Shown: positions 1,477-61,437, numbered from the stretch's first letter. The stretch is DNA of 64,000 bases from an uncultured Alphaproteobacteria bacterium (GCA_905479265.1 CAJQLX010000009.1:564-64563); one strand, 5' to 3'. Notes: generated by a model not told the origin, from the letters alone. Numbers and translations are program-made.

Positions 1477-1588
1477 CCCGCCTCTCAAACTACAAATTGT
1501 TAGAAAGAACTCTTGCAATCTGCCGAATCAACTCCGATTTAAGGGTTAGCGTCGGGGGCCGCATCATTCTTAGAGGAGAGGCTTCACC

Positions 1589-1684: not shown

Positions 1685-1687
1685 GCC

Positions 1688-2584: not shown

Positions 2585-2629
2585 AAAGAGCCGCCGCCAT
2601 CCAAGCCGAACCAAAAGGGATAAATTCCA

Positions 2630-3799
2630 ATGGCAACCGAAACCAAAACCGCCGTCGCTGAAGTCATTTTTCCAGACGTGGCCGCAGATGGATCCGTCAC
2701 CAACACAGCGTTGGTGCCCGTTGATCCGGATGATCCAACCAACCAGGCGATGGTGAACAAGTACATGTCCGAGCTGGATATGTCGGACACCAACTCGATC
2801 ATCTTTTTCGGATCGAAAGCGCAGCAGGAGCTGACGACCATTTCGTCAACCATGCTCGATGGCGTGCGCAACAAAGATGTTGGCCCCGCCGGCGACGCAC
2901 TGACCAACATGGTTTCGGCGCTGAAGGGCTTTGACGCGCGCTCCTTGGATCCAAACCGCAAGCCAAACTTTTTCATGCGCTTGCTGGGCATGGGTCAGGA
3001 CAATCTGGTCCGGTTTCAGTCCAAATTCGACACGGTACAGGGTCAAGTCGATCAGATCGAAATCGACTTGGAGAAGCAAAAGACGGTGATGCTCACCGAC
3101 ATTGAAAAGCTCGATAAGCTCTACGATGCCAACCTCGACTACTTCCATGATCTCGAACTGTGGATTGACGCCGGTGAGAAGAAGCTGGCCTTGCTGAACG
3201 AGGAAGACATCCCAGCGCTCGAAGCCAAGGCAGAACAATCTGGCGAAATGCTGGATGCCCAAGCCGTGCGCGATCTCCGCTCTGCCCGCGATGATCTGGA
3301 GCGCCGCGTTCACGACTTGCGACTCACCCGCCAGGTGACGATGCAGTCCCTGCCGTCGATCCGGTTGGTGCAGGAAAACGACAAGGCGTTGGTGAACAAG
3401 ATCAACTCGATTGTCGTCAACACCAAGCCGCTTTGGCAGCAGCAGCTGGCACAGGCGATTGCCATTCACAACATGGCCAAAACCGGCCAAGCGGTCGAGG
3501 CAGCACAGGATTTGACCAATGATTTGCTCAAAGCCAATGCCGATAACCTGCGCGCCGGCAACGCCCAAGTGCGCGAGCAGATTGAGCGCGGTGTCTTTGA
3601 CATTGAAACCGTGCAGGAAGCCAATGATAGCCTGATCGGGGCCATCAATGACTCCCTGATGATCGCCGATGAAGCCAAGAAGAAGCGCGCTGCGGCTGTG
3701 GTCGCCATGCAATCCATGGAAAACGATCTCAAGGCCGTGCTGAAGTCTGCTTCCGGCGCTGCGATCGAGGCTGGCCAATCAGCCGTCGACGCCAACTAA
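2630..3799 (+). CDS. telA: TelA/YaaN/KlaA-family toxic anion resistance protein
   Basis: 389 aa with the family's N-terminal pattern (..NQAMVNKYMSELDMSDTNSIIFFGSKAQQELTTISSTMLDGVRNKDVGPAGDALTNMVSALKGFD..) and a long coiled-coil body, both typical of the TelA family. Confidence 0.8.
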   Translation: MATETKTAVAEVIFPDVAADGSVTNTALVPVDPDDPTNQAMVNKYMSELDMSDTNSIIFFGSKAQQELTTISSTMLDGVRNKDVGPAGDALTNMVSALKGFDARSLDPNRKPNFFMRLLGMGQDNLVRFQSKFDTVQGQVDQIEIDLEKQKTVMLTDIEKLDKLYDANLDYFHDLELWIDAGEKKLALLNEEDIPALEAKAEQSGEMLDAQAVRDLRSARDDLERRVHDLRLTRQVTMQSLPSIRLVQENDKALVNKINSIVVNTKPLWQQQLAQAIAIHNMAKTGQAVEAAQDLTNDLLKANADNLRAGNAQVREQIERGVFDIETVQEANDSLIGAINDSLMIADEAKKKRAAAVVAMQSMENDLKAVLKSASGAAIEAGQSAVDAN

Positions 3800-20749: not shown

Positions 20750-23700
20750 TCAATTGCCACCAGTGGATTTCGCGGAGGGAGGCAGGTCATCATTTCCGAC
20801 CAGCACTTCCATCAAACGCGGCGTTTCCGTCCATAGTAAGAAAGTGCGAATTGGCTTCCCGGGATACAAGCCCTCTAGCACAGATTTATAAGCTGCCAGC
20901 TGTGCACGATAGCTCTCCGGCACGCCAGCCGCCGTTGTTGGTGGCGGGCGGTTTGACTTGTAGTCGACCACCCAGACGTCATTTTCTCGCTCCACGAGTC
21001 GATCAATTTGCCCCGAAACCACCAACTCACCGACGATGCCGGTCACGGCAACCTCGGCTCGGCTGTTGGCGCTGAACAGGTCCGCGAAGTCGGGATCGTT
21101 TGTGATGGCGATGGCTTCACGGCTCCAGTCATCGATCTGCGTTGGGATCAAGTCGAACGAAGGCCGACCCAAATATCGCCGCGCAGCGGCTTCGCGCTCG
21201 CCATGTGGAACCTCGGGTAATCGTTGCAGCAATCCGTGCAGCACATTGCCGCGAAAGAATGGCGAGGCAGAGCGGTGGCCGCGCGCCGTGGTGCCCGTCC
21301 CTTGCAGCTTGCGCAGGGCATCCAGCGGGGACGGCGCTGCGGGCTCCAACAGCATCTGGCTGGGGGTAAAGGGCCGGGGCGGTGACGGCTCAACGGGGAT
21401 GGCTGTCTGCAGCTGCGCCAGCGCCCTGTCATCGGTGCGCGCCGCTGTATCAATCGCAAAGCTGCTCGCCTCGTGGTCCCCTTTGGGCTTTGGTAAGCGA
21501 TCTGGTGAGGCCGCAGGCGCAAACAGCCGAAACCGCGTGCCGGCAACCTCGTCTGGCCCCGGCGTGAGCGTTTCGACCGCTTCGTTGCTTTCGAATGCAG
21601 CCTTGATGGTCTCGTACCATGTTGCCTTAGGAGGCTTGTTCTCGTCGGCTGGTGGCCGCGGCTTCCAACCACAGAGATACAGCCGATCTTCCGCGCGGGT
21701 CATGGCGACGTAGAGCAAGCGCCGCTCTTCTTCCTCGGCCTTGGCCTTGTCCTGCGCATCCAGCACGAGGGTTTCAGCCGGTGTTTCCCCGGTCGGGGGC
21801 TTCCAATAGGGCAGCGGTGCCGGCGCGTCGTCCGTGTCGAACCACCGCAGTCTATCGCGAGAAATGTCATCCATGCGCCGGTGCGTGTGGGGCAGAATGA
21901 CCACGGGTGCTTCGAGGCCTTTTGAGCCGTGAACCGTCATGATTCGCACGCCGCCGTTCGCGCCTTCCTGCTCCCGCTTGACCTCGATTTCAGCCTTGGA
22001 CAGCCAACCCAGAAAGCCCGGAATTGTCGGCGTCTTGGCGCGCTCATAGGTCAGTGTTGCGCGCAAAAACTCCTTGAGAGCATCCGCCGCCTGTGGCCCC
22101 AGACGGCTTGAAAACCGAATCCCCGCTGCCATTTTCGTCAGCAGAAAGCTGTAAAAGGTGTACGGCGTTGATGCCAGGCGCGCGCGCAAAGCCTGAAACA
22201 GACTGCGAGCCTCCCGCGCAGCAGCGTTCCCGTTATCAGCGGCCTTGACCAAAGCGGCTTCCAAGCTCTCGCCTTTACCCCGGCGATGCGCCAGCTCATA
22301 CAACTGCTGCACAGTAAACCCACACAGCGGGCTGCGCAGGACGGTGGCCAGTGCCAAGTCTGCAGCCGGTTGCAGCAGATACTCGGTCAAGCAGAGCAAA
22401 TCTTTGACAACCAGCTGCTCCTGCAACTTCATCCGGTCCGCCCCCGCCACGCGCACACCGTTCTTTTTCAGCGTGTAGGTCAGCGTGTTGATAAACGGGC
22501 CGGACCGAGACCGCACCAGCACCAGAATATCTTCGGCGCGCATGGGACGACCGTGGTTGGACAGCCAGCCCTCATGCCCTTCACCCGCCGCTTTCCCGTC
22601 AAGCCACCCACTGATCCGCTCGCCCAACAGTTTTGCAAGCTCGACTTCCGGACGGTCGGGTTCATCGAGATCGTCATCACCCCGCACGACCACACGCGGG
22701 GCGCTTTTGTCTTTGGGCACCGCTGTAATAGGATCCCAGACTTCGACCAAGCCACCCGCGCCGGGACGGCCAGTCAGGTGCATGGGCCAATCTTGGTTTT
22801 CGAAGGTGAGGCCTTTGGCATTTTCGGCATGGGTGAAAACCGCGTTTACGGCATCCAAGACCGGCTGCGAAGACCGGAACGTCACGTTCAACACCGGGTC
22901 AATCCACGCGTGATTCGGCAGGCGCCGAACGTCCTGTTCGAACCGGGTTCGCATGTTTTCAAAAACCTGTGGATCGGCGCGCTGAAAGCCATAGATCGAC
23001 TGCTTCAAATCCCCGACAACAAACGTCGTACGCGGGGCGGTGCTGTCCTCGTCCGTGCCGTCGTAAAAGGCATCGGTCAGCCCACGGACAATGGCCCATT
23101 GGTCTGGGTTCGTGTCTTGCGCTTCATCCACCAACACGTGGCGCAAGCCCTGATCCAGCTTGAACGCCACCCATGCCCCAGCGCCGTCTTCGGCGGTCAG
23201 CAAATCGATGGTTTTTAGGATCAAATCATCAAAATCGACGCGGCTGATCGCAGCCTTTGACGCCGCATAGGTCTCGATGATGACCCCAGCGGTGTCCAAA
23301 AGTGCTTCTGAAACGTCCAATTGCCGAAAGGCACGGAGCGCATGGATCAGCGGCAAAACGCGTTGCTGCTCATTGAGGATGGCGTCGATGGCTTCGGGCT
23401 GCTCTTCCCGAAATTTTTTCAGAAAAACCTGCGAGCTCAGGGTGCGCGGCTCACTGTCGGTTTTGATGAACAAAGGGATGTACTGGTCAAGGGTCGCGAG
23501 CCGGTCTTCGAGGCGAGATTGGCTGACCCATTCCATCGCAGAGAACGCCAATTTGTTCCGGCTATTGGGCGCGTTGCTGGTGCTTTCCATCCAATTGCCG
23601 AACGCTTGAAACGCGGCCTGCAGCTCAGACGGTACGCCGTCTTTCAGCGCCAAAGCTGCCGCGTAAGCCTCTTCCTCAACACCCAGCTCCAACCCCAGAC

Positions 23701-24421
23701 GTTCCCGCAGGGGCTCAAGAATAACCCGCGCCGGGCGTCGGTTCTCACCGCGCAGTCGTTCAACCCGACCCCGCTCCCGCACCAAACCAGCCAGAATGTC
23801 CCGGAACGTGTCCTCGCCCAGTGCCTCAAAGACCTGCGACATGGCCGGTTCTTCGCGTGCAATCAAACCAGAGAGAAACCGATCAACCGTTGTTTCCAGC
23901 AGCGCTTTGGCTTCGCTATCCTCCAGAACGCTGAACCCCGGCTGAACGCCGGCTTCTACGGGGAAGCGCCCCAGCAAACTTTGTGAAAAGGCGTGGATTG
24001 TCTGAATATTGAGACCGCCCGGCGCCTCCAGCACTTTGGCGAACAAGCGACGCGCCAGCGCCAACTGTTCCTCCCGAGGCCGCTTACCCGCCAACTTGAA
24101 CAGCGCATCACTGAGTTTAGAATCCCCCAGCGTCACCCATTCTTCGAGCGCTTCACTGACCCGATTGGCCATTTCTGCGGCTGCTGCTTTGGTGAACGTC
24201 AGCGCCAGAATTTCGCGCGGTTCTGCCCCTTCGAGCAACAGAGCCAGCAAGCGGTTTGTCAGAACTCTGGTTTTGCCTGTGCCCGCTGACGCTGCGACCC
24301 ACGCCGTCGCAACCGGGTTTGCCGCCGTTCGCTGGTCGTGTGTGGCTTGCAGATGGTTGGGCGCGGGCGTGTCACCATCGATGCGATCATCCCAAAGCCA
24401 GTTCGACGCATTATTCATCAT
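20750..24421 (-). CDS. addA: Double-strand break repair helicase AddA (UvrD-like helicase plus C-terminal nuclease)
   Basis: Walker A (AGTGKT) and UvrD-family helicase motifs. It overlaps addB by 11 nt at tandem ATGs. The AddB-then-AddA order matches the alphaproteobacterial addBA arrangement. Confidence 0.9.
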   Translation of the reverse strand: MMNNASNWLWDDRIDGDTPAPNHLQATHDQRTAANPVATAWVAASAGTGKTRVLTNRLLALLLEGAEPREILALTFTKAAAAEMANRVSEALEEWVTLGDSKLSDALFKLAGKRPREEQLALARRLFAKVLEAPGGLNIQTIHAFSQSLLGRFPVEAGVQPGFSVLEDSEAKALLETTVDRFLSGLIAREEPAMSQVFEALGEDTFRDILAGLVRERGRVERLRGENRRPARVILEPLRERLGLELGVEEEAYAAALALKDGVPSELQAAFQAFGNWMESTSNAPNSRNKLAFSAMEWVSQSRLEDRLATLDQYIPLFIKTDSEPRTLSSQVFLKKFREEQPEAIDAILNEQQRVLPLIHALRAFRQLDVSEALLDTAGVIIETYAASKAAISRVDFDDLILKTIDLLTAEDGAGAWVAFKLDQGLRHVLVDEAQDTNPDQWAIVRGLTDAFYDGTDEDSTAPRTTFVVGDLKQSIYGFQRADPQVFENMRTRFEQDVRRLPNHAWIDPVLNVTFRSSQPVLDAVNAVFTHAENAKGLTFENQDWPMHLTGRPGAGGLVEVWDPITAVPKDKSAPRVVVRGDDDLDEPDRPEVELAKLLGERISGWLDGKAAGEGHEGWLSNHGRPMRAEDILVLVRSRSGPFINTLTYTLKKNGVRVAGADRMKLQEQLVVKDLLCLTEYLLQPAADLALATVLRSPLCGFTVQQLYELAHRRGKGESLEAALVKAADNGNAAAREARSLFQALRARLASTPYTFYSFLLTKMAAGIRFSSRLGPQAADALKEFLRATLTYERAKTPTIPGFLGWLSKAEIEVKREQEGANGGVRIMTVHGSKGLEAPVVILPHTHRRMDDISRDRLRWFDTDDAPAPLPYWKPPTGETPAETLVLDAQDKAKAEEEERRLLYVAMTRAEDRLYLCGWKPRPPADENKPPKATWYETIKAAFESNEAVETLTPGPDEVAGTRFRLFAPAASPDRLPKPKGDHEASSFAIDTAARTDDRALAQLQTAIPVEPSPPRPFTPSQMLLEPAAPSPLDALRKLQGTGTTARGHRSASPFFRGNVLHGLLQRLPEVPHGEREAAARRYLGRPSFDLIPTQIDDWSREAIAITNDPDFADLFSANSRAEVAVTGIVGELVVSGQIDRLVERENDVWVVDYKSNRPPPTTAAGVPESYRAQLAAYKSVLEGLYPGKPIRTFLLWTETPRLMEVLVGNDDLPPSAKSTGGN

Positions 24422-27400
24422 GGTCCCCGCCTTCCCATTCATCCTGCCGCGCCAAATCGATGAAATCGCCTTTGCGCACCACACGAGCGATGAACGCTCG
24501 ATCCTCGTTTTGGTAGGTCGCAATCAGTGTGCGCAGATCGTCCCACGTCGTGTTGATGAGGTCTGCGGTGATGACGGGCTCTTTCTGGCTTCCACCCGGC
24601 GCACGGACTGAGATTTTCCCACCGTCATCGGTGCCGTTGATTTGCCAATATTCCAGCGCTTCGACGTCCAGCCCAACCGGCACTTGACCAAATGCCCCCT
24701 TTTGGATCAGCGCGCCTTCCAGCGCCAACTGCGGTTTTTCGCCCTTATGAACCTCTGCCCCCGTCGGCAACTGGCCGCTTTTGTAATCCACCACCACCAG
24801 CGTCTTATCGGCGGTTACGTCAATCCGATCGGCGCGGCATCGCAGGGTGTATTGAATATCACCAACGTCAAAACTGTACTCGGCCTTGTCTTCGATCGCT
24901 GCAGGATGCCGGCCTTCGGCCCGCAAGCTCTTTTCCGTCGCGGCAAACCACGCGGCCACCTTGCGCAGCTTTGGCGTCCAAAGCGCCAGTTGGGGTTCGG
25001 GCAGACCGCTGGCCTGAAACCGTGTGAAGAGCGCGTCGTACACCACCTGCTCAAACCCCGCACCCAAATGGCCGGGATGGGCCTTGAGCACGCCTTCCAA
25101 AGCGTCGTGAATGATCGTTCCACGGATCGCCGCGTCAACCTGCCCCCCCAAGGGCCGCAGGGCACGCAGCCGCAGCGTGTGTTTGACGTAAACGTCAAAG
25201 GGATTGGCCTTCCAGCGCTCCACATCCGTGACCGCAAACACCGTTGGCCGCGCCGATAAGGGCGGCTTAGGGCGTGGGCGGCGTTCTGGTTTGATGGTTT
25301 CGGCGATGTCTATGTCCCGCGCCGCCTGCGCCAACGAAAGCCCCTTGGGCGCCAGCACGTGATCAGCCTGAACAATCTTCAAAAACGCCTTCAAGCGTTT
25401 GATAAAGCGCGAAGGCACAGTCGCACCGCCATCGACCAAGCTCGCGCGTGTCATAATGACTTCCGCCCGGCCAAAAGCCTGACAGAAATCGTGAGCCGCC
25501 AGCCCAATGCGCCGTTCTACCGGCGGCAGGCCAAAACTGCGTCGCATGGGTCGCGACATCCACGGGCCGGGCTGGGTTTCGGCTGGCCACGTGCCTTCAT
25601 TCAGGCCACCAACAATAATCCGATCGACGCTGGTTAAGCGCGCCTCGATCCCACCGAGAATCAACACGCGAGGATGCCCCACAAAGGGCGACCGCAGGCT
25701 CAGCCCGCTCGCGGCCCGCTCCATCAGCGCCCGAAACTGTGGCAGCAATATCGGCACAGGCGCCACGTCTCGATCAGCCAGCGTTTCGGCCCATTCCATC
25801 AGGAAGGCAATCACGCTTTCCGCGCCCGTTTGCGCCCACAAACCGGCCCCCGGATCGTCCGCCTCCGCTTCGACCTCTGACGGCGCGGGGCGGGCAAGGT
25901 CTTCGAGCGCTGCGACCAAAGCCACCAGCCAGCTCAGTGTCGTCCAACTGGTCCCGTCTTCGCCCTTATCAGCCTCCTGCCGCAGCGCCTGCGTGGCCGC
26001 AATAACCCGGTCTAAAACGGCAAACGCCTGATTGATCCCGTCCACGTCCGGGTTGGCGCTGATCCAGTTGAGCATGGGCGTGAACCCGTTGCCCGACGGC
26101 GAATTTCGCAACACATGCAGGTCCAGCGCCGTGCGCCCTCGCAGTCGCTCTGGGTCCGACAAACCCAACTGGCACAAGGGATGGTGGAGCAGCGAAAGCA
26201 GCGCAAAATGGTCCACCTTGCCTTCAATCAAATCCAACACGATCCGCGCGAATTTAAAGGCCGGCGCGTCTTCGAGGCGCAATCCGGCGGAGTCGTCAGG
26301 CTCAATCGCCCAGCGCTGCAAATGGCCTTTGACCCGCTCCGCCAAGGCGCGATCGGGGGTAACCAGCGCAGACACAAACTCCGGCTTATCCAACCCTTGG
26401 CGCAAGGCCAAAGCGATGGTCTGTGCCTCTTGATCATCATCATCAAGTTCGTAAAGCGTGACGTCGTCAAAGGCTTGCTCGATCGCCGTCACGCTGAGCC
26501 CCTGAACCCCCGCGCGCCAGCCCTCGGTCAGACTGGCCGTCGTTTCTGCGGGTAGCATGGCTTTAGAGAGCAGTTGCGTGCGCGGTTCCTGCATGCGTGC
26601 GGGCAACCAGGGCCAAGGCTGCACGGCTTCGGGTGGCTGTTCACACGCTTTAAGAACCTCATAAAACCCATACTGAGGGTGCGTGATTTCGTGCTCAATC
26701 TCCGCCCATGCCTGCGCGCTCAAATCCGGATCCATGCCCGGCAAGACCACCGCCCCTTGCGGCAGTTTCAGCACGGCCGCGAGCAGCTTTCTGGTCGCAG
26801 GAATTGAGCCCGTGGAGCCCGCTGCGATCACCGGGCCGGTTGGCGGTGCCAAATCCCAGCGACGGATCTGGTTTTCGATGGACAGTCGGCGGCGTTTCGC
26901 CGGTGAGATATAACCCGCCGCGTCCTCAACGTTGGGCCAAACCTCGTAGAGAATCCGCAGGAACCGCAGGGATTTTTCCCAATGCGCCGCCAACTCTGTC
27001 TTTTCGACCAATTGCGGGAGCTTTGCCGCGTCCAGACCTTCGGTTTCGATCTGGTCCATCAGTCGCGCCAGCTCCTGCGCCAGCGCCATCACGTGGTCTT
27101 GTGAAAGCGTTGCATCGGTTTTTGCCACCAACTCTGCCAGCGCTGCTTCGCGCCGCAGCTTGGGCCACGGCTCGGCCAGATCGAGATCCGCATCGGGCAG
27201 CATATCGGCATCAATTCGGCCAGCAATGGCTTCCCCAACCGCATCCTCGTCCGACAAATCCCCCATCGGCACCATGCGCGGCAGCAGCATCGCTTCCCCG
27301 TCACGCAGTCGCAAAAAGGTGGTTTGCAGCGTGCGTCCGGCGCGTCGGTTCGGCAGCAAAATCAAGGCATCGGCCAAGTCCATATCCGCTTCCAGCAGAC

Positions 27401-27464
27401 CTTGCGCCAATGTTGTCCCGAAATCTGCGTAAGAGGGAATGTTGTACAGTCCACGCAAGCTCAT
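24411..27464 (-). CDS. addB: Double-strand break repair protein AddB (inactivated-helicase-like N-terminus plus PD-(D/E)XK nuclease C-terminus)
   Basis: C-terminal nuclease motif (VVVDYKSGQLPT). The start MSLRGLYNIPSYADFG.. forms an ATGA overlap with the tsaE stop. Confidence 0.9.
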   Translation of the reverse strand: MSLRGLYNIPSYADFGTTLAQGLLEADMDLADALILLPNRRAGRTLQTTFLRLRDGEAMLLPRMVPMGDLSDEDAVGEAIAGRIDADMLPDADLDLAEPWPKLRREAALAELVAKTDATLSQDHVMALAQELARLMDQIETEGLDAAKLPQLVEKTELAAHWEKSLRFLRILYEVWPNVEDAAGYISPAKRRRLSIENQIRRWDLAPPTGPVIAAGSTGSIPATRKLLAAVLKLPQGAVVLPGMDPDLSAQAWAEIEHEITHPQYGFYEVLKACEQPPEAVQPWPWLPARMQEPRTQLLSKAMLPAETTASLTEGWRAGVQGLSVTAIEQAFDDVTLYELDDDDQEAQTIALALRQGLDKPEFVSALVTPDRALAERVKGHLQRWAIEPDDSAGLRLEDAPAFKFARIVLDLIEGKVDHFALLSLLHHPLCQLGLSDPERLRGRTALDLHVLRNSPSGNGFTPMLNWISANPDVDGINQAFAVLDRVIAATQALRQEADKGEDGTSWTTLSWLVALVAALEDLARPAPSEVEAEADDPGAGLWAQTGAESVIAFLMEWAETLADRDVAPVPILLPQFRALMERAASGLSLRSPFVGHPRVLILGGIEARLTSVDRIIVGGLNEGTWPAETQPGPWMSRPMRRSFGLPPVERRIGLAAHDFCQAFGRAEVIMTRASLVDGGATVPSRFIKRLKAFLKIVQADHVLAPKGLSLAQAARDIDIAETIKPERRPRPKPPLSARPTVFAVTDVERWKANPFDVYVKHTLRLRALRPLGGQVDAAIRGTIIHDALEGVLKAHPGHLGAGFEQVVYDALFTRFQASGLPEPQLALWTPKLRKVAAWFAATEKSLRAEGRHPAAIEDKAEYSFDVGDIQYTLRCRADRIDVTADKTLVVVDYKSGQLPTGAEVHKGEKPQLALEGALIQKGAFGQVPVGLDVEALEYWQINGTDDGGKISVRAPGGSQKEPVITADLINTTWDDLRTLIATYQNEDRAFIARVVRKGDFIDLARQDEWEGGDHDE

Positions 27465-27946
27465 GCCGTCACTCCTGCGAGCCGCTCTGCCCACGCCTCT
27501 GACCCGTGAAAGTGAAATCTGCGAAATGTCTCGCGCGCTGCATCCAGCTCAAGCGTGATGTGCAGCGCCGCAGCGGGCCGGAGCGAACCTAGGCGTTCCG
27601 GCCATTCGACCAAGGTCGCGCCTTCATCCAGCGCATCATCCCAGCCCAAGTCAAAAACCTCCTCCGCCTCGCCCATGCGATAGAGGTCAAAGTGCGTGAC
27701 TGTCAGCGATGGTGCGCTGTAAATCTGGCTGAAGGTAAAGGTTGGACTGGCGACAATCGCATGCGGATCACCCAGGACCGCCCGCACCAAAGCCCGGCAA
27801 AAGGCCGTCTTTCCTGCGCCCAAAGTGCCATCCAGCAGCACCACATCACCGACCGCCAGAACCCGCGCCAGCTTCGCAGCCAGTCGCTCGGTTCCGCGTT
27901 CATTTTCGACAGCAATGGTCAGGAAATCGTGTGCGCTCTCACCCAT
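27461..27946 (-). CDS. tsaE: tRNA threonylcarbamoyladenosine biosynthesis ATPase TsaE (YjeE)
   Basis: P-loop (LLDGTLGAGKT) and the SPTFT and HFDLYR motifs of TsaE. Confidence 0.8.
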   Translation of the reverse strand: MGESAHDFLTIAVENERGTERLAAKLARVLAVGDVVLLDGTLGAGKTAFCRALVRAVLGDPHAIVASPTFTFSQIYSAPSLTVTHFDLYRMGEAEEVFDLGWDDALDEGATLVEWPERLGSLRPAAALHITLELDAARETFRRFHFHGSEAWAERLAGVTA

Positions 27947-54768: not shown

Positions 54769-55308
54769 TTACAACAGCGAACGCTCGCGGACCAATCGGT
54801 CTGCGGCGTTTGTTGCGTATTTCATCAGCAAGGCACGCCGACGCGCACTGGGCAATGGATCCGACGCTGTAGGCGGTCGAAGCTCGAACGCTTCAAAATT
54901 ATCGGCCAGAATGACCCCGACGTCATCGGGCAACTGCGCCAGCGGAAAATCCGGATCGACGGCAAAACTAAACCGGTCGCAAAAGCCAAGATATTCCTGC
55001 CATTTCTGATCGACGCGAAAGTCGTCCAAGCACGACTTGATCTCAATGGCCCAGAACTGTCCCTTCGTTGACAGCCCCATGACATCCACGCGCCGCCCCG
55101 TCGGCAGCGTAAACTCGGGCAGCACCGACCATCCCAGCGCATGAAAGTGGCCAATGACGCCCTTGAGGATGCGCGCGGTGATATCGACGCGTGAAACACC
55201 GTATCCGACCCCCAAGCCAAGCTTAGATTGAGTCGGAAGACCATCAGACCGTGAAAAATTAGAATCAGACATAATCTCAGTATGAACCAGTTTTGTTCCC
55301 CTAATCAA
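54769..55308 (-). CDS. PD-(D/E)XK nuclease-fold protein, probably MmcB-family DNA-repair protein
   Basis: D..E-x-K core (GRRVDVMGL ... WAIEIKSCLDDF). About 170 aa. The family assignment is from memory of the MmcB/DUF1052 profile and is unverified. Confidence 0.45.
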   Translation of the reverse strand: MIRGTKLVHTEIMSDSNFSRSDGLPTQSKLGLGVGYGVSRVDITARILKGVIGHFHALGWSVLPEFTLPTGRRVDVMGLSTKGQFWAIEIKSCLDDFRVDQKWQEYLGFCDRFSFAVDPDFPLAQLPDDVGVILADNFEAFELRPPTASDPLPSARRRALLMKYATNAADRLVRERSLL

Positions 55309-55400
55309 CGGTTCAAAGTGCCCATATTTTAGACAATAGTCGCTAAAAACTGCAGTTTTTCACGGCAACCAAGGCAAACCCCATACAGCGGTAACAAACC

Positions 55401-55916
55401 GTGCCCATAGTTGAGGGGTGGCTTAGGAGTGTTAGACACGTGGTAGCTCATCAAACGGCGGGAACGCCAGCGATCGTAAAATGGTTCAACCCGACAAAAG
55501 GGTTCGGGTTCGTCACCCCTAAAGAAGCAGGCTCTGACGCCCTGTTGCATGCCAGTGTACTGGCCAAGCGCGGTAAACGGTGGCTGCAAGAAGGCACACA
55601 CGTCGAGGTCTTGATTGAAGAAGGGCCAAAAGGACTTGTGGTCTCTGAGCTGCTGACCATCGAAGAAACAGAACTTGAGACTGATGCCGCTGACGCTGGA
55701 GACTGGGTTGATGCAGAGGTGAAGTTCTTTAACTTTGCCAAGGGCTATGGGTTTGCTGTGGTGGAAGAAACCAGTGAGGGCGCCCAGGACGTGTTTTTTG
55801 ACAGCCGCGCTTTGGCGCAGGCCGACCTTGACCCGCCCCGCCCCGGCGACCGCTTTCAGGTGCAACTGACCCAGCGGCCCCAAGGGTGCGCTGCGGAACG
55901 CATCAGAGTGATTTGA
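55401..55916 (+). CDS. Cold-shock protein with two tandem cold-shock domains (start uncertain; alternative GTG at 55440)
   Basis: CSD 1: IVKWFNPTKGFGFVTP..G.DALLH. CSD 2: AEVKFFNFAKGYGFAVVE..DVFFD. Confidence 0.7.
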   Translation: MPIVEGWLRSVRHVVAHQTAGTPAIVKWFNPTKGFGFVTPKEAGSDALLHASVLAKRGKRWLQEGTHVEVLIEEGPKGLVVSELLTIEETELETDAADAGDWVDAEVKFFNFAKGYGFAVVEETSEGAQDVFFDSRALAQADLDPPRPGDRFQVQLTQRPQGCAAERIRVI

Positions 55917-57069: not shown

Positions 57070-57295
57070 TTTTGCTCTCTTTCAGTCGACTATTTCTAGA
57101 GTTTTTCACTAAATTCACGGCTTCTTTGCGCATTTTGTCTGGTTTGCGGTTTTTCTGAAGATTTGGATCTCGTGCCTTCCAGCCGCTGGCACATCCATTG
57201 CGAATTCGGTGACCAACCCTAATCAAGAGGGATGGCGTGAAGGTTGCACAATTCTGGTGCGGCCGAGAACGCCGAACTAAGCAAAAGATCATTAA

Positions 57296-57311
57296 GCCGT
57301 ATCAATACGGC
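57296..57311 (+). promoter_or_regulatory. 7-2-7 perfect inverted repeat GCCGTAT-ca-ATACGGC abutting the RBS of the giant OMP-like gene; candidate operator or translational hairpin
   Basis: Read directly from the sequence. The arms gccgtat and atacggc are exact reverse complements. The repeat ends about 4 nt before the AAGGAA Shine-Dalgarno and 13 nt before the ATG at 57324. Confidence 0.4.
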
Positions 57312-57323
57312 AAGGAACGAGTA

Positions 57324-60300
57324 ATGATTGAGTCTAAATTCTGGACCCGTCGGGTGCAGCTGGTCACGACCAGTGCGCTTGTCACGGTAGGCCTTTTGGC
57401 CTGTGCGTCCATCGCAAATGCGCAGCGCGCTGTTTTGGCGTCACCTGCACCGAATACCGAACAAGCGGCGCCTGACAGCGGCCGTAACATTCCTAATGGG
57501 ATTCCGTTTCAAATTTCTGTAGACGGCGTTCCCATCGACGGCTCGTTGGGCACGGCCGAAGATGATCAGCGCACAGTCGATGTCGCATTAGATAGAATGG
57601 ACGTTCAGCTCACATTTGACGGGCTGAAGCTGGATAAAGCAGCGAACATTCAAGCGAACAAAGCTGGCGCGAAGGTCGGTGAGGAAGTGGTCTTCACACC
57701 TTACTGGAACTATGGGTCGTTCATCGAGCGAGCAGAGGTGCGTATTTTCCGCAGCGATGCTTCAACCGATGGCGCGCCGCTGGCGACCGTGTCGCTTCCG
57801 GCAGGTCGGTCAGTGGGCTGGCAAGTTCCCGAAAGTGTGAACACAGACCTCAAATACGTCCTGCGCCTTTATAGTAAGGCCAATCGTTTCGATGAGACGA
57901 ACCCGCAGCGTTTGAAACTGTTCGAAGCGGACCACGGGCAAGAAGACAATGAACCTGTGCAGCAGGCCGGTTACGGTCGCAGCTCGCTGGTGAAATCGAA
58001 TATCGCTGTGGGCGGCGGTACCGTGACTGTCTTTGGCGAAAACGTCCCGGCAAACAGCACCGTTTACGTGCTGGGACTGCCTGTTCCTGTCGATGGTCAG
58101 GGCAAGTTTGTGACAGAGCAGCTTTTGCCTGCTGGCTCTCACAACGTGACCATTGCTGTGTTGGACGACAACCGTCGTGGACTAGAATTTCAACGCAACC
58201 TTTATATTCCAGATAGTGATTTCTTTTACGTTGCACTGGGTGATTTGACGGTTGGCGCAGCCTCGGTTTCTGGACCGACGGAGCTGGTCGGCGAGAACGG
58301 CGGCTTTGGTGACAATTTTTACACCAATGCGCGCTTGGCCGGCTTTCTGAAGGGCAAGATCATGGGCGACGTCTATGTGACTGCCCAAGCCGATACTGGT
58401 GAGGCGTCTGTTCAAGACATTTTCACCAACTTCCTCGACAAGGACGCATCGTCACTGATTGATCGTGTCGATGATGACCGGACCTACACAACCTTTGGCG
58501 ATGATTCATCAATTTCCGATGAAACCCCATCGCAAGGTAAATTCTATGCCAAGGTTGAAAAGGGCAACAGCCACGTTCTGTGGGGTAATTTCTCCACCGG
58601 CATCACCGGCACCGACTTCGCACAGGTAAACCGCTCTCTTTACGGTGCCCAGGTGAAGTTTCGGACCGAACAGGCGAATGAAAACGGCGACGCGTACCTG
58701 TCTGTAGATGCCTTTGGCGCGCAGCAAGGCACAGTGCCGCACCGTGACGAGTTCCGCGGTACGGGGAACTCTGTTTACTTCATGTCGTTCCAGGATTTGG
58801 CCAATGGCGGTGAGCGCCTAACAGTCGAAGTCCGCGATCCGTTCAACGATATTGTCAAAGAACGCCGCATTCTGGTTTACGGTGAAGACTATGACATTGA
58901 TTACATTCAGGGTCGCGTGATCCTGTTTGAACCCCTGCCCTCGACCGTGGATGATGGTTTCCTTGTATCCTACGGCACCGGCACATCCGGCGACGAAGTC
59001 TACTTGGTCTCCGAATACGAATACACGCCGCTTGGCGCAGACTTCTCTGACCTGTTTTATGGGGGCCGGGCGTCTGCGTGGCTTGGCAAATATTTCAATG
59101 TTGGCGCCACCGCAATTCGCGATCAGCGCGGCTTGATTGACAAGCAATTGCTCGAAGCTGACGCCACACTCACATTCGGTGGCTCCACCTACATTCGCGG
59201 TGAAATCGCCCAGAGCAACGGTGATCCTTACGTGTCTTTCGGCTCGCTGGATGGTGGTTACTTTGTTGATGAAACCCAAACACCAGCAGCTGTCCAAACC
59301 CTGATTCCAACCGGCGGCAGCCTCTCTATCGTTGGGGATTTGACCAACCTTGAAGATTTGACCGTTACCCTTGTTTCTCGCGATACCGTGACCGGTGAGC
59401 AGACAGGCAGTCAGACACTGGTTGAAAACACCGACTTCACCCTGTCCGGCAACACGCTGGAGCTGATTGGGACGTATGCCGGCTGGGACGAGACGATTGA
59501 CGACGCGACGGAAGCCGATGAGCTTGCCGCTGGCACCCAGGTTGGTGACGACGTTGAAGTTCTGATCAATCCAAACAATGGCTTGCAGGGCGAGGTTGGA
59601 TATCGCGTTGAAGCCTCCGTTGCGGCAAATGATTTTGGCGCAGACTTCGGTGGGCGCGTGACGGGTTACTACCAACACCGTGATGCAGGCTTTGCCGGTA
59701 CGGGGTCGTACACAGCAGATGAAATCAACCAATTCGGCGGAAACCTTTCCGCTCCGTTTGGACCGATCAATCTGTCAGCACGCTATGACCAGACCAACAA
59801 CGTCTCGCAAGACGCTCAAGACCGCCGCGCCAATCTTGACGCAAACTTTAAGTTCGAAAACATCACAGCCGGCATTGGCCTGGGGTACTCGGACACGACG
59901 ACCGCCAGCGTCCAAACCGCTCAGTCCACAACACTCGGCGGGGATATTGGCGCAAGTTTTGGCGGCTATACCTTTGGCTTGTTCGGGCAGTATGACCTGC
60001 AGAACTCCTCGGGCGTCAATGGCGGTCGCGTTGGTGTTCGCGCCGCGGCTCAAGTGACAGAAAATATCGAAATCAATGCCCAAGTCGGCACTGACTTCGA
60101 CAATTCTGGAACCTCTGACGCCACGGACAACATCTTTGCGTCGGTCGGCACGGATATTACCGTCAACGACTACATCCGCATGAACGCGGCCTATGAACTG
60201 GCAAACCGCACCAATGCAGGTACGGGCCAAGGCCAACTCGGCGGTACGGTCAACTTCGGTGGTAACGCGCGCTTTAACAACGGCGTCGACTTCCACTTTA

Positions 60301-61247
60301 GTGAGCGGATCACCCACGCCGGCACGTCGGTCAACGCGTTGCAGCACTCGTTTGGTGTGAACTACGCGATGAGCAAAAACCTGACCTTTGGCTTGACCGG
60401 TGAAGTGGGTCAGGTGCGGGAAGATCAGTTTGCCGAAGCCAGCGACAGCAACCCCTTCCTCAACCGCCGAGCCGCAACGGTTCGGGCGCAGTATGGCAAC
60501 AGTGGTCTAACCCTGGGTGCAGCGGCGGAATATCGGTGGGAAGAAAGCTCCGCAGACGAGGACGGAAACGAGGAAAACGACACGCGCGCGACCTACGTTC
60601 TCAAGGGTAATGCATCCGCCAATATCTCCCCCGATTGGAGATTGGTTGCGAATGCTGCGGCGGTATTCTCTGAATACAACGGCAACTTCGAAGACGGAAA
60701 CTTCCTCGAAGCGTCCATCGGTGCGGCCTATCGCCCAACCAACAACGATCGTCTAAACGCCTTGGTTCGCGCCACGGCACTCTATGACTTGCCAACCCGG
60801 ACTCAGGCCGAAACGGCCGAAGAAACCGGCAGCGGCGTGGCCAACTACCGTCAGCGCTCGTTGATTGGTGAGGCGGACGCGATCTTCCAAGTCACGAAGA
60901 ACTTCGATGTTGGCGCGAAATACGGTGTGAAGGTCGGTGAAGTCACATCCTGCCGAACCTGTACCGACTGGTACGGCTCTAACATCCATCTGTTGGTGGG
61001 ACGTGTTGACTGGCACGTTGTCAAGAATTGGGACGCTTTGCTCGAAGGCCGCGCGATGTGGCAGGGCAACGTCGGCAACTCTGGCGAAAGCGCCATTCGG
61101 CTCGGAGCACTCGCGGCGGTTTACCGCCACGTTGGAGACAACCTCAAGGTTGGCGGTGGTTACAACTTTGGTTCGTTTGATGACAACCTGACGGACGTTT
61201 CGTTCGACAAGCAAGGTCTGTTCATCAACGCAATTGCGAAGTTCTAA
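57324..61247 (+). CDS. Giant (about 1307 aa) secreted outer-membrane-like protein: signal peptide, N-terminal Ig-like/beta-rich region, roughly 600-aa C-terminal beta-barrel-like region ending in Phe
   Basis: Signal peptide (MIESKFWTRRVQLVTTSALVTVGLLACASIANAQ). The C-terminal half has Gly/Asn/Thr/Tyr-rich alternating-polarity segments and ends ..QGLFINAIAKF, a beta-barrel terminal signature. No known family recognised. The 57237 start in the ORF track was rejected because the signal peptide follows Met30. Confidence 0.6.
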   Translation: MIESKFWTRRVQLVTTSALVTVGLLACASIANAQRAVLASPAPNTEQAAPDSGRNIPNGIPFQISVDGVPIDGSLGTAEDDQRTVDVALDRMDVQLTFDGLKLDKAANIQANKAGAKVGEEVVFTPYWNYGSFIERAEVRIFRSDASTDGAPLATVSLPAGRSVGWQVPESVNTDLKYVLRLYSKANRFDETNPQRLKLFEADHGQEDNEPVQQAGYGRSSLVKSNIAVGGGTVTVFGENVPANSTVYVLGLPVPVDGQGKFVTEQLLPAGSHNVTIAVLDDNRRGLEFQRNLYIPDSDFFYVALGDLTVGAASVSGPTELVGENGGFGDNFYTNARLAGFLKGKIMGDVYVTAQADTGEASVQDIFTNFLDKDASSLIDRVDDDRTYTTFGDDSSISDETPSQGKFYAKVEKGNSHVLWGNFSTGITGTDFAQVNRSLYGAQVKFRTEQANENGDAYLSVDAFGAQQGTVPHRDEFRGTGNSVYFMSFQDLANGGERLTVEVRDPFNDIVKERRILVYGEDYDIDYIQGRVILFEPLPSTVDDGFLVSYGTGTSGDEVYLVSEYEYTPLGADFSDLFYGGRASAWLGKYFNVGATAIRDQRGLIDKQLLEADATLTFGGSTYIRGEIAQSNGDPYVSFGSLDGGYFVDETQTPAAVQTLIPTGGSLSIVGDLTNLEDLTVTLVSRDTVTGEQTGSQTLVENTDFTLSGNTLELIGTYAGWDETIDDATEADELAAGTQVGDDVEVLINPNNGLQGEVGYRVEASVAANDFGADFGGRVTGYYQHRDAGFAGTGSYTADEINQFGGNLSAPFGPINLSARYDQTNNVSQDAQDRRANLDANFKFENITAGIGLGYSDTTTASVQTAQSTTLGGDIGASFGGYTFGLFGQYDLQNSSGVNGGRVGVRAAAQVTENIEINAQVGTDFDNSGTSDATDNIFASVGTDITVNDYIRMNAAYELANRTNAGTGQGQLGGTVNFGGNARFNNGVDFHFSERITHAGTSVNALQHSFGVNYAMSKNLTFGLTGEVGQVREDQFAEASDSNPFLNRRAATVRAQYGNSGLTLGAAAEYRWEESSADEDGNEENDTRATYVLKGNASANISPDWRLVANAAAVFSEYNGNFEDGNFLEASIGAAYRPTNNDRLNALVRATALYDLPTRTQAETAEETGSGVANYRQRSLIGEADAIFQVTKNFDVGAKYGVKVGEVTSCRTCTDWYGSNIHLLVGRVDWHVVKNWDALLEGRAMWQGNVGNSGESAIRLGALAAVYRHVGDNLKVGGGYNFGSFDDNLTDVSFDKQGLFINAIAKF

Positions 61248-61390
61248 CCATCCGGTCAGTAACCGCTCGTTCCCTACTGACCAAATCTTGAGGTCAGGGG
61301 CGAAGGTGCTAGCCCAATATTGAGTGTTGCCCAGCACCCATGATTTCAGGCGCCGACTGATGGCCCAAAGTCAGTCAAACGGCACCTTCG

Positions 61391-61420
61391 CCCCCCTTTC
61401 TGCGCGCAAGCAGAAAGGGG
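61391..61420. terminator. Strong hairpin (11-12 bp stem cccctttctgc / gcagaaagggg) between the convergent OMP-like and methyltransferase genes; putative bidirectional terminator
   Basis: Perfect stem with a 6-nt loop, read from the sequence. A weak U-rich tract (ttcgttgtt) follows on the + strand. Confidence 0.45.
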
Positions 61421-61437
61421 GCGAAGTTCGTTGTTGC

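What the first reader, a model, noticed from the sequence alone, without database searches (positions are those of the whole stretch)
57296..61247. Giant 1307-aa secreted protein with a C-terminal beta-barrel-like half ending in Phe, preceded by an operator-like palindrome at its RBS
After a clean Sec signal, the N-terminal roughly 600 aa is rich in predicted beta structure (a possible Ig-like segment at VTVFGENVPANSTVYVLGLPVPVDGQGKFVTEQLLPAGSHNVTIAVLDD). The C-terminal roughly 600 aa has the alternating G/N/T/Y/F pattern of outer-membrane beta-strands and terminates in the barrel-closing motif ...LFINAIAKF.

The size of the putative barrel, about twice a classical 12-strand autotransporter translocator, together with the N-terminal passenger-like region, fits no family I recognise. 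It could be a novel surface protein or large-pore OMP.

A perfect 7-2-7 inverted repeat (GCCGTATcaATACGGC) immediately upstream of the Shine-Dalgarno suggests tight repression, or an RBS-occluding hairpin.
Basis: partly seen in the sequence, partly recalled or inferred. Interest (0 to 1): 0.55.

Follow-up and report, generated by a model that had tools for sequence, protein, structure and literature searches.

The report
Orphan 40-strand outer-membrane barrel protein
The gene encodes a secreted 1307-residue protein predicted to fold into one outer-membrane beta-barrel of about 40 strands, larger than any barrel solved so far; its large, unnamed family nearly always sits beside or is fused to a giant fibre-like adhesin, but this copy stands alone.

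Summary
The ORF (57324-61247, +), its Sec signal peptide and its C-terminal ...NAIAKF are real. Only residues 61-290 lie outside the barrel (a conserved motif plus two beta-sandwich domains). Residues 298-1307 form one antiparallel meander of 40 strands. Two AlphaFold2 models (pTM 0.74 and 0.75) and my own coevolution analysis support this, including a ladder that pairs the first strand with the last.

Pfam, NCBIfam and PDB sequences do not match the core. Fold searches return only generic large barrels such as SprA, LptD and TonB-dependent receptors.

The family is large: 2540 representative clusters, and at least 581 species genomes. In 68 of 70 distant loci the gene lies just downstream of a 1000-3000+ aa CLIPPER/SdrD_B adhesin gene. 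In 24 of the 150 best representatives the two are fused. The family is therefore most likely the outer-membrane conduit and anchor of these adhesins.

The window's marine alphaproteobacterial clade is an exception. It has no adhesin nearby, no OmpA domain and an extra 120-aa insert, yet it is under strong purifying selection (dN/dS about 0.06).

The palindrome occurs at chance frequency and has no other copies. A hairpin at that position is conserved with different stem sequences, so it is an RNA element rather than an operator.

The parts
57296..57311 (+). 5'-UTR hairpin (perfect 7-2-7 palindrome GCCGTATcaATACGGC), ending 12 nt before the ATG
   Evidence: The sequence is. Five orthologous loci each fold a 5-7 bp hairpin (-6 to -10 kcal/mol) at the same place with different stems: GCTGT/GCGGC, GTCGC/GCGGC, GGCCACT/AGTGGTT, GCCACT/AGTGGT. 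It occurs at chance frequency as a palindrome and has no other copy in the window.
57312..57326 (+). Shine-Dalgarno and start context, AAGGAACGAGTAATG
   Evidence: The stretch (A/G)AGGAACGAGTAATGATT is kept in all orthologous loci apart from its first base (A or G), although the proteins diverge by up to 38%.
57324..61247 (+). Coding sequence of the 1307-aa outer-membrane protein, stop codon included
   Evidence: The exact protein occurs on 28 public contigs as 'hypothetical protein'. dN/dS against the 90% orthologue is 0.056.
57324..57422 (+). Sec signal peptide, residues 1-33, cleaved at ANA|Q
   Evidence: The sequence shows an n-region (K5, R9, R10), a hydrophobic core and an AxA site. The AxA-Q motif is conserved in the clade and Cys27 is not.
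57504..57644 (+). Family-conserved N-terminal motif, residues 61-107 (PFQISVDGVPIDG...DDQRTVDVALDR...)
   Evidence: It is conserved from Alphaproteobacteria to Geomonas. Most of the equivalent stretch in the homologue P0012 (up to about residue 88) is modelled as disordered, pLDDT below 50. It is a candidate docking or threading segment; that role is inference.
57645..57968 (+). Beta-sandwich domain 1, residues 108-215
   Evidence: AF2 model residues 1-108 contain nine strands, with pLDDT mostly 82-92.
57987..58178 (+).
   Evidence: AF2 model residues 115-178 have pLDDT 83-93. The equivalent region of homologue P0099 gives a sub-threshold Glucodextran_B match.
58215..61244 (+). Single transmembrane beta-barrel of 40 antiparallel strands, residues 298-1307
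   Evidence: AF2 gives pLDDT 79 and pTM 0.74. An independent model of homologue P0012 gives the same strand series, pTM 0.75. In the coevolution analysis every consecutive strand pair is the best partner of its neighbour. A closure ladder links L305-K1306, G306-A1305, D307-N1302, V310-I1301 and A312-L1299. The best structural matches are SprA, LptD, TonB-dependent receptors and ushers, all partial.
58734..58988 (+). Family-conserved inserted beta domain between barrel strands 7 and 8, residues 471-555; it carries FRGTGNSVY...QGRVIL, the best-conserved stretch of the family
   Evidence: Invariant residues are R478 G479 T480 D491 R504 D505 D522 Q529 G530 R531. AF2 shows six short strands. The flanking strands pair directly with each other in the coevolution analysis (s8-s10). 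A role as plug is inference.
59223..59588 (+). Clade-specific insert of about 120 aa between barrel strands 11 and 12, residues 634-755
   Evidence: It is absent from the conserved core. Column occupancy is 1.0 in the window clade and about 0.15 elsewhere. The flanking strands pair directly (s13-s15, score 1.67). There is a weak CBM_X2 match, E = 0.0016, below threshold. dN/dS is 0.053.
61212..61244 (+). Last barrel strand with terminal Phe (QGLFINAIAKF), residues 1297-1307
   Evidence: It is conserved family-wide and coevolves with the first strand, residues 298-313.
61386..61426 (.). Strong hairpin (17-bp stem with one bulge) between the convergent barrel and methyltransferase genes; probable bidirectional terminator
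   Evidence: It is not tested further.

Best explanation
The gene encodes a Sec-exported outer-membrane protein. After a short linker come a conserved N-terminal motif and two periplasmic-side beta-sandwich domains. The remaining 1010 residues form one closed, BAM-type beta-barrel of 40 strands. The barrel carries a family-conserved small beta domain inserted after strand 7 and a clade-specific domain of about 120 aa after strand 11.

The protein belongs to a very large, uncurated family. That family's usual job, inferred from gene order and gene fusions, is to be the outer-membrane conduit and anchor of giant Sec-exported fibrillar adhesins built from CLIPPER (DUF11), SdrD_B and related isopeptide-type stalk domains.

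The inferred mechanism is as follows. The adhesin's conserved C-terminal cassette stays on the periplasmic side, next to the barrel's N-terminal domains and, in most homologues, next to peptidoglycan-binding OmpA domains. The stalk passes out through the very wide barrel. That width could admit domains already folded and cross-linked in the periplasm.

The window copy is an orphan. It has no adhesin gene nearby and no OmpA domain, and it sits in a conserved housekeeping neighbourhood. It is under strong purifying selection, and eight positions that are at least 96% conserved elsewhere in the family have changed. My best guess is that this lineage keeps the giant barrel as a self-plugged, stand-alone envelope protein that displays its own insert.

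What is shown: the ORF, the signal peptide, family size, synteny, fusions and selection. What is predicted: the 40-strand closed barrel. What is inferred: the topology, the translocation and anchoring role, and the stand-alone status.

Layered confidence:
- Giant single barrel of this family: about 0.85.
- Family role as adhesin conduit and anchor: about 0.65.
- This copy works without an adhesin: about 0.45.
For: Structure:
- The AF2 model of residues 108-1307 has pLDDT 79 and pTM 0.74, with an uninterrupted series of long strands from residue 286 to 1306.
- An independent model of the 49%-identical homologue P0012 has pTM 0.75 and the same strand series.
- I ran mean-field DCA on 313 homologues (Neff about 245). 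It recovers every consecutive hairpin from strand 2 to strand 43, and it excludes three DSSP strands (s1, s9, s14) from the sheet.
- The first-to-last strand block shows a collinear antiparallel ladder. Five pairs score above 0.5 against a background 99th percentile of 0.42. The strand-pair score of 0.69 exceeds the 99th percentile of 776 background pairs.
- Only 40 strands gives the even number that an antiparallel closure needs.

Family size:
- 847 hits in the first search.
- 2540 representatives at E <= 1e-3.
- At least 581 species genomes.

Link to adhesins:
- Giant CLIPPER/SdrD_B genes lie immediately upstream in Geomonas, Marinobacter, Accumulibacter and an alphaproteobacterial contig.
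- 68 of 70 loci with at least 3 kb of upstream sequence carry an adhesin-like ORF on the same strand. The median ORF piece is 2325 aa, and about 30 loci show an ATGA start/stop overlap.
- 24 of the 150 best representatives are fusions of 1949-6889 aa with the module at the C-terminus. Their N-terminal parts are CLIPPER/SdrD_B repeats.
- The adhesin's conserved C-terminal cassette lies 4-120 aa before the module with no internal signal peptide, or before intervening OmpA domains.

Orphan status:
- No adhesin-like ORF exists in the 64-kb window or in six orthologous loci.
- The synteny aminotransferase | barrel | methyltransferase | polA is conserved.
- dN/dS is 0.056 overall and 0.053 in the insert.
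- 35 of 186 family-conserved positions have changed, with a cluster at residues 866-993.
Against: - I could not inspect coordinates. The strand count and barrel closure therefore rest on DSSP strings plus coevolution at modest depth (Neff about 245).
- No experiment on any family member was found in the literature I could search.
- Translocation through the barrel, as opposed to mere co-anchoring, is inferred only from topology arguments.
- Some fused proteins could be assembly or frameshift artefacts, and cluster representatives may favour long sequences. Direct junctions without a signal peptide argue against this for several of them.
- For the window copy, only 64 kb of the genome is visible, so an unlinked adhesin cannot be excluded.
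- 81% of family-conserved positions, including the N-terminal motif, are retained. That fits an unchanged function equally well.
Confidence: 0.6

Rival explanations
1. Same protein and same family, but the window copy still does the family's usual job. It exports and anchors a giant adhesin that is simply encoded elsewhere in the genome, unlinked.
For: 151 of 186 family-conserved positions are retained, including the N-terminal motif and the FRGTG...QGR insert. Purifying selection is strong. Adhesin-linked members without an OmpA domain exist, such as P0013/L008 and L019, so loss of the OmpA domain is not diagnostic.
Against: In 68 of 70 other loci the pair is adjacent and often translationally coupled. 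Here the barrel gene has sat alone in the same housekeeping synteny through more than 35% protein divergence. Eight positions that are at least 96% conserved elsewhere have changed radically in the clade. No adhesin-like ORF lies within the 64-kb window.
Confidence: 0.35
2. The sheet is not one closed 40-strand barrel. It could be two smaller barrels in one chain, or an open beta-sheet (a beta-taco or groove, as in AsmA/TamB-type proteins).
For: Multi-barrel chains exist (PMC8346858). I could not view the coordinates. Two inserted domains, after strands 7 and 11, could mark domain boundaries. TM-scores to solved barrels are low, 0.13-0.19.
Against: Strands on either side of both inserts pair directly with each other (s8-s10 score 0.82, s13-s15 score 1.67), so the sheet is continuous across them. 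The only strong non-neighbour contact of the last strand is the first strand, and it forms a collinear antiparallel ladder. pTM is 0.74-0.75 for two whole-chain models. The protein also has a terminal aromatic residue, and every fold hit is an outer-membrane barrel.
Confidence: 0.1
3. The palindrome GCCGTAT-N2-ATACGGC is an operator for a dimeric repressor that tightly controls the gene.
For: It is a perfect 7-2-7 dyad 12 nt upstream of the ATG. The surrounding 5' region has conserved blocks among close orthologues.
Against: The dyad sequence is not conserved. Orthologues have different stems at the same position that still pair, which is the signature of RNA structure rather than a protein-binding site. 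Perfect 7-bp inverted repeats occur 41 times in the window. There are no further copies.
Confidence: 0.08
4. It is a divergent member of an already characterised outer-membrane family: autotransporter, TpsB/Omp85, usher, LptD, TonB-dependent receptor or SprA.
Confidence: 0.03

Closest known systems
Superfamily of very large outer-membrane barrels predicted by Solan, Pereira, Lupas, Kolodny and Ben-Tal 2021 (PMC8346858): families 002 (40 strands) and 003 (38 strands)
   Same: A single-chain barrel predicted from sequence and coevolution to have 38-40 strands, larger than any solved barrel. The families are large and proteobacterial. My independent count is 40.
   Different: That paper gives no function, no partner and no domain description in its main text. 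Its supplement and web list were not readable here, so identity with this family is likely but unverified. The adhesin coupling and the orphan clade are not mentioned there.
SprA, the type 9 secretion translocon (36-strand barrel; PDB 6H3I, 8GL6)
   Same: It is the best Foldseek match (E = 4e-9). It is a giant single-chain barrel that lets folded proteins cross the outer membrane and needs plugs or partners to stay sealed.
   Different: Identity is 7% and TM-score 0.19. SprA has about 2400 aa and 36 strands, occurs in Bacteroidota, and recognises its substrates by a C-terminal domain signal with PorV. There is no SprA Pfam match. The family here is proteobacterial, desulfuromonadal and nitrospiral, and it is tied one-to-one to a neighbouring adhesin gene.
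Type V secretion: classical autotransporters (Va) and two-partner secretion (Vb)
   Same: A BAM-type barrel is encoded in the same polypeptide as a long N-terminal surface protein, or next to its gene. Both arrangements occur in this family, which parallels Va and Vb.
   Different: Type V barrels have 12 or 16 strands and export unfolded passengers. Here the barrel has 40 strands. There are no POTRA domains, no TPS domain on the partner and no autotransporter Pfam match. The gene order is adhesin first, then barrel.
Chaperone-usher pathway ushers (FimD, PapC)
   Different: Ushers have 24 strands, export non-covalent pilin polymers and need a chaperone. There is no usher Pfam match. The side of the membrane on which the insert lies is not established here.
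Plug-and-barrel complexes (LptD-LptE, MtrB-MtrA) and the LapA retention module in the LapE pore
   Same: A large barrel sheathes part of a partner protein that spans the outer membrane. In the LapA case a giant adhesin is held at the surface by a domain that cannot pass the pore.
   Different: These have 26-strand barrels or a TolC-type channel, different partners and different export routes (type 1 secretion for LapA). The resemblance is functional and inferred, not homology.
OmpA family / MotB (the database label of most homologues)
   Same: Most family members carry one to three N-terminal PF00691 peptidoglycan-binding domains.
   Different: That label describes only an accessory domain, and the window protein lacks it. 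The 1200-aa core has no relationship to the 8-strand OmpA barrel or to MotB.

Membership tests
Giant-barrel, adhesin-partner family (unnamed; this work) | Full-length homology of the roughly 1200-aa core: the N-terminal motif, two beta-sandwich domains, and the barrel with its FRGTG...QGR insert | tested here: met
   BLASTP covers query residues 61-646 and 760-1307 at 34-43% identity to Geomonas and Marinobacter proteins. 76 alignment columns are invariant.
Giant-barrel, adhesin-partner family (unnamed; this work) | Adjacent upstream, or fused, giant CLIPPER/SdrD_B adhesin | tested here: not met
   The feature is present in 68 of 70 distant loci. It is absent from the window and from six orthologous loci.
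Giant-barrel, adhesin-partner family (unnamed; this work) | N-terminal OmpA (PF00691) peptidoglycan-binding domain; frequent in the family but not universal | tested here: not met
   The window protein has no PF00691 hit. The domain is present in most homologues.
38/40-strand OMBB superfamily of Solan et al. 2021 | Single barrel with 38-40 strands supported by predicted contacts | tested here: met
   40 strands from two AF2 models plus DCA, with first-to-last strand closure.
38/40-strand OMBB superfamily of Solan et al. 2021 | Sequence membership in their family 002 or 003 | not testable with these tools
   The supplement is not held as text. The main text names no proteins.
Classical autotransporter (type Va) | C-terminal 12-strand barrel (PF03797) with the passenger in the same chain | tested here: not met
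   No Pfam hit. The barrel has 40 strands. Only about 230 non-barrel residues precede it.
TpsB/Omp85 (type Vb, BamA/TamA) | 16-strand barrel preceded by POTRA domains | tested here: not met
Inverse autotransporter (type Ve, intimin/invasin) | 12-strand barrel followed by a C-terminal Ig-like passenger | tested here: not met
   The barrel ends at the C-terminus with the terminal Phe and nothing follows it.
Usher (FimD/PapC) | 24-strand barrel with plug, PF00577 | tested here: not met
SprA (T9SS translocon) | 36-strand barrel in a protein of about 2400 aa with SprA sequence homology | tested here: not met
   Foldseek TM-score 0.19 at 7% identity. No sequence match in the PDB.
LptD | 26-strand barrel plus an N-terminal beta-jellyroll (PF04453, PF03968) | tested here: not met
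   No Pfam hit. Foldseek TM-score 0.14.
Bacterial lipoprotein | Conserved lipobox cysteine at the signal-peptide cleavage site | tested here: not met
   The LLAC motif in the window protein is LLAY or LLAF in close orthologues, whereas AxA-Q is conserved.

The most novel reading that the evidence does not exclude
The family is an unrecognised outer-membrane export and anchoring route. A single-chain 40-strand barrel, the largest known, would let Sec-exported giant adhesins leave the periplasm after their isopeptide- and disulfide-stabilised stalk domains have folded, and would then hold them by a C-terminal stopper cassette tied to peptidoglycan. The window's marine alphaproteobacterial clade would then be a natural experiment in which the barrel persists without its adhesin, either as a self-plugged giant pore or as a scaffold that displays its own domain.
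Probability: 0.4. Interest if true: 0.85.

Novelty: new variant of a known kind. Interest (0 to 1): 0.68.

Why it matters
The largest solved single-chain barrel is SprA, with 36 strands; a 2026 preprint still cites it as the record (10.64898/2026.03.07.710327). A 40-strand barrel found in hundreds of species, including cultivable Stutzerimonas, Pseudomonas, Herbaspirillum, Marinobacter and Geomonas, would extend what the BAM machinery is known to assemble.

How Gram-negative bacteria get CLIPPER-type fibrillar adhesins across the outer membrane and anchor them there is not addressed in the survey that defined these domains. That paper (PMC12617251) mentions only an 'OmpA-like anchoring domain' and never a barrel. 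The near-universal gene pairing and the fusions reported here give a concrete candidate that can be tested by genetics.

The orphan copy in the window shows that the barrel can be kept for long evolutionary periods without the adhesin next to it. That raises two questions: what seals it, and what does it do on its own?

Tried and rejected
- Pfam, NCBIfam and PDB sequence searches of the window protein were empty, apart from two sub-threshold hits inside the clade-specific insert.
- A PDB profile search with the family alignment hit only the OmpA domains of homologues.
- The afdb50 fold library was unavailable.
- My first DCA run exceeded memory, so I reran it on strand columns only.
- The supplement of Solan et al. 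is not held as text, so identity with their families 002/003 could not be checked.
- Literature searches for 38- to 48-stranded barrels, and for adhesin/OmpA/barrel operons, found nothing on this family.
- The sigma-70 consensus scan found no promoter upstream.
- The search for further copies of the palindrome was negative.
- The lipoprotein reading of LLAC was rejected because Cys27 is not conserved.
- The longer GTG start at 57237 was rejected because the conserved Shine-Dalgarno and ATG context of the orthologues lies downstream of it, at 57312-57326.
- The idea that gain of the insert coincided with loss of the adhesin was rejected. The insert-less relative P0012 also has no adhesin gene directly upstream, although only about 760 nt of upstream sequence is visible there.

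Full report
**1. The observation**

The ORF is real. It runs from 57324 to 61247 on the + strand, starts with ATG and encodes 1307 aa. A longer reading from GTG 57237 is possible, but orthologues share only the stretch (A/G)AGGAACGAGTAATGATT around the ATG, and upstream of it they diverge.

The N-terminus is a standard Sec signal peptide: K/R-rich start, hydrophobic core, ANA|Q cleavage after residue 33. The AxA-Q motif is conserved in the clade. Cys27, which could be read as a lipobox, is Tyr or Phe in close orthologues, so the protein is not a lipoprotein.

The C-terminus ...LFINAIAKF is conserved across the whole family.

The palindrome GCCGTATcaATACGGC sits at 57296-57311, with AAGGAA at 57312-57317.

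**2. No curated family, but a very large family**

Pfam gives only two sub-threshold hits, both inside a clade-specific insert. NCBIfam and PDB sequences give nothing. Public records that carry the identical protein (28 contigs, the longest 352 kb) call it 'hypothetical protein' from Alphaproteobacteria MAGs.

Homologues are nevertheless abundant:
- 847 hits among the scored candidates.
- 2540 cluster representatives at E <= 1e-3, and 736 at E <= 1e-30, in a library of 1.84 billion representative proteins (one per 50%-identity cluster).

These include cultured Stutzerimonas stutzeri, Pseudomonas kuykendallii, Herbaspirillum, Polaromonas, Janthinobacterium, Mesorhizobium, Phyllobacterium, Marinobacter, Colwellia, Thalassotalea and Geomonas.

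The conserved core is query residues 61-646 plus 760-1307, at 34-43% identity to Geomonas and Marinobacter proteins. Most homologues carry one to three N-terminal OmpA (PF00691) domains, which explains their 'OmpA family protein' or 'MotB' labels. The window protein has none. A PDB profile search with the family alignment hits only those OmpA domains.

**3. Structure**

AF2 on residues 108-1307, with a 117-sequence alignment, gave pLDDT 79 and pTM 0.74. The model shows:
- then a continuous series of long strands from residue 286 to 1306;
- two inserted beta domains interrupting that series, at residues 471-555 (family-conserved) and 634-755 (clade-specific).

A second, independent model of the full-length homologue P0012 (1181 aa, 49% identical, lacking the second insert) gave pTM 0.75 and the same strand series.

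Coordinates are not returned by the tool, so I tested the topology by coevolution. I aligned 313 non-redundant homologues (Neff about 245) to a query-based HMM and ran mean-field DCA on 590 strand columns. The results were:
- Every consecutive strand pair from 298-313 to 1297-1307 is the best partner of its neighbour.
- Three DSSP strands (285-296, 556-568, 743-750) are not part of the sheet.
- The strands flanking each insert pair directly with each other (s8-s10 score 0.82; s13-s15 score 1.67).

For the first and last strands, the strand-pair score is 0.69. The background 99th percentile is 0.58 and the maximum over 776 pairs is 0.72. Each strand is the other's best non-neighbour.

The residue block shows a collinear antiparallel ladder: L305-K1306 0.57, G306-A1305 0.64, L305-I1304 0.51, D307-N1302 0.64, V310-I1301 0.61 and A312-L1299 0.34. 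The residue-pair 99th percentile is 0.42.

The count is 7 + 4 + 26 + 2 + 1 = 40 strands. This is the only count whose parity allows an antiparallel closure.

Using the standard barrel-geometry formula (b = 4.4 A, tilt about 40 degrees), this would be roughly 7 nm across between C-alpha atoms if round. That figure is my own calculation, not read from the model.

**4. Genomic context: the family is tied to giant adhesins**

In Geomonas, Marinobacter, Accumulibacter and an alphaproteobacterial contig, the homologue lies directly downstream of a 2200-3000 aa protein. That protein is built from CLIPPER (DUF11), SdrD_B, SpaA, DUF7933 and DUF7507 repeats and has its own signal peptide. These are the isopeptide-type stalk domains of fibrillar adhesins (PMC12617251).

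Across 70 distant loci with at least 3 kb of upstream sequence:
- 68 carry an ORF on the same strand that matches Pfam-verified adhesins at BLASTP E < 1e-8, with a median ORF piece of 2325 aa.
- In about 30 loci the adhesin stop and the barrel start overlap as ATGA.

Among the 150 best cluster representatives, 24 are proteins of 1949-6889 aa with the module at the C-terminus. Their N-terminal parts are the same adhesin repeats.

The adhesins share a conserved C-terminal cassette of about 350 aa. In fusions this cassette sits in one of two positions:
- 4-120 aa before the module, with no room for an internal signal peptide. These are true fusions (P0122, gap 14 aa; P0169, gap 4 aa).
- About 550 aa before the module, with OmpA domains in between (P0157).

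OmpA domains bind peptidoglycan in the periplasm, and the barrel's last strand ends on the periplasmic side in BAM substrates; both points are established knowledge. It follows that the adhesin's C-terminus is on the periplasmic side, so the adhesin chain must cross the outer membrane. The neighbouring 40-strand barrel is the obvious conduit. This step is inference.

**5. The window clade is an exception**

The window and its orthologues share the neighbourhood aminotransferase(-) | barrel(+) | methyltransferase(-) | polA(-). The orthologues are 62-90% identical and come from marine metagenomes and MAGs, the nearest named one being 'Geminicoccus sp. MED756' at 81%.

No adhesin-like ORF is found anywhere in the 64-kb window or in six orthologous loci. 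Only 2 of the 70 other loci lack the adhesin.

The gene is not decaying. dN/dS against the 90% orthologue is 0.056 overall and 0.053 in the insert.

Of 186 positions that are at least 85% conserved elsewhere in the family, 151 are kept and 35 have changed. Radical changes occur at sites that are at least 96% conserved elsewhere: G482N, S496G, G906R, E920Q, G924D, G936N, Y954N and E993S. The changes in the second half of the protein are concentrated between residues 866 and 993.

The insert at residues 634-755 is confined to the clade. The insert-less relative P0012 also shows no adhesin gene directly upstream, although only about 760 nt of upstream sequence is visible there. The orphan state therefore appears to predate the insert.

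**6. The palindrome**

Perfect 7-bp inverted repeats are common in the window: 5 with a 2-nt spacer and 41 with spacers of 0-8. There is no second copy, and near-matches are at a borderline chance level. The local fold is not unusual, z = -0.84, and it leaves the Shine-Dalgarno sequence unpaired.

All five distinct orthologous upstream regions nevertheless fold a 5-7 bp hairpin ending about 12 nt before the ATG. The stems have different sequences: GCCGTAT/ATACGGC, GCTGT/GCGGC, GTCGC/GCGGC, GGCCACT/AGTGGTT and GCCACT/AGTGGT.

Structure is conserved while sequence is not. This favours an RNA hairpin in the 5' UTR over an operator. It might stabilise the mRNA 5' end, as in E. coli ompA mRNA, but that comparison comes from memory and was not tested. 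With so few sequences the evidence is suggestive only.

**7. Mechanism and rivals**

Best explanation: a 40-strand barrel from the adhesin-partner family, present here as an orphan. The report sections give layered confidence for this.

Rivals considered:
- The partner adhesin is encoded elsewhere in the genome (0.35).
- The sheet is not a single closed barrel (0.10).
- The palindrome is an operator (0.08).
- The protein is a divergent member of a characterised family (0.03).

**8. Comparison with known systems**

Solan et al. 2021 (PMC8346858) predicted a 'superfamily of large OMBBs' with 38 and 40 strands, without assigning any function. This family is probably one of theirs, but I could not verify that.

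As of March 2026, SprA with 36 strands was still cited as the largest known barrel. The CLIPPER survey mentions only an 'OmpA-like anchoring domain' for Gram-negative adhesins and never a barrel.

Functionally, the family resembles several systems:
- type V secretion, because both fused and two-gene forms exist;
- ushers, because of the barrel with an inserted small domain and the export of folded Ig-like units;
- plug-and-barrel complexes.

It fails the defining tests of each of these families (see the membership table).

**9. Limits**

There are no coordinates, no experiments, modest coevolution depth and only 64 kb of the genome. The translocation role and the stand-alone status are inferences.

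Noticed in passing
window 61386-61426: A strong hairpin (17-bp stem with one bulge: CTTCGCCCCCCTTTCTGC gcgcaa GCAGAAAGGGGGCGAAG) lies in the 190-nt gap between the convergent barrel and methyltransferase genes. It is probably a bidirectional terminator.
   Followed up: partly
window 57070-57295: The divergent intergenic region holds blocks conserved among 81-90% orthologues (for example CACATCCATTGCG, GGTTGCACAA, CTAAGCAAAAGATCATTAAG). No sigma-70 consensus promoter was found, so the promoter and any regulatory sites are undefined.
   Followed up: partly
window 57504-57644 (residues 61-107); P0012 residues 26-88: The N-terminal motif PFQISVDGxPxD...QRxxDVAL is conserved from Alphaproteobacteria to Geomonas, yet most of the equivalent stretch in P0012 (residues 26-88) is modelled as disordered, pLDDT below 50. 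It may fold only against a partner, or it may thread through the lumen.
   Followed up: partly
L002 1614-10004 and the upstream ORFs of L009-L088: The giant adhesins share a conserved C-terminal cassette of about 350 aa (DUF11, an SdrD_B-like domain and an alpha/beta end domain) at 40-58% identity across classes, even where the rest of the stalk differs. It is a candidate docking or stopper module for the barrel.
   Followed up: partly
L001 13160-21124 (Geomonas propionica): Downstream of the barrel gene lie three TPR proteins (one of 1092 aa) and an ExbB/ExbD pair on the same strand. This was not seen in the Marinobacter or Accumulibacter loci. It may be a lineage-specific energising or assembly module.
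   Followed up: no
window 20750-27494 (-): Two large ORFs (1257 aa: UvrD-type helicase plus PD-(D/E)XK nuclease; 1027 aa: PD-(D/E)XK nuclease) look like an AddA/AddB-type helicase-nuclease pair. They are unrelated to the finding.
   Followed up: partly
window 54769-55916: An MmcB-like gene (-) and a protein with two cold-shock domains (+, 171 aa) lie upstream of the aminotransferase. The same genes occupy the same order in all orthologous loci.
   Followed up: partly
L011 10001-13861 (Rhodospirillaceae MAG, 62% identity): The orthologue appears broken into shorter ORFs (longest piece 696 aa) in a pilon-polished contig. This is either assembly frameshifts or a pseudogene.
   Followed up: no
L008 13589-15985: Downstream of an adhesin-coupled alphaproteobacterial homologue lies a BufA1/MbnB/HvfC/DoxX cluster (bufferin-type RiPP genes), probably unrelated.
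   Followed up: no
window residues 866-993 (nt 59919-60302): Radical substitutions at otherwise near-invariant family positions (G906R, E920Q, G924D, G936N, Y954N, E993S) cluster in barrel strands of this stretch in the orphan clade. This could mark the surface that contacts the adhesin in coupled members.
   Followed up: partly
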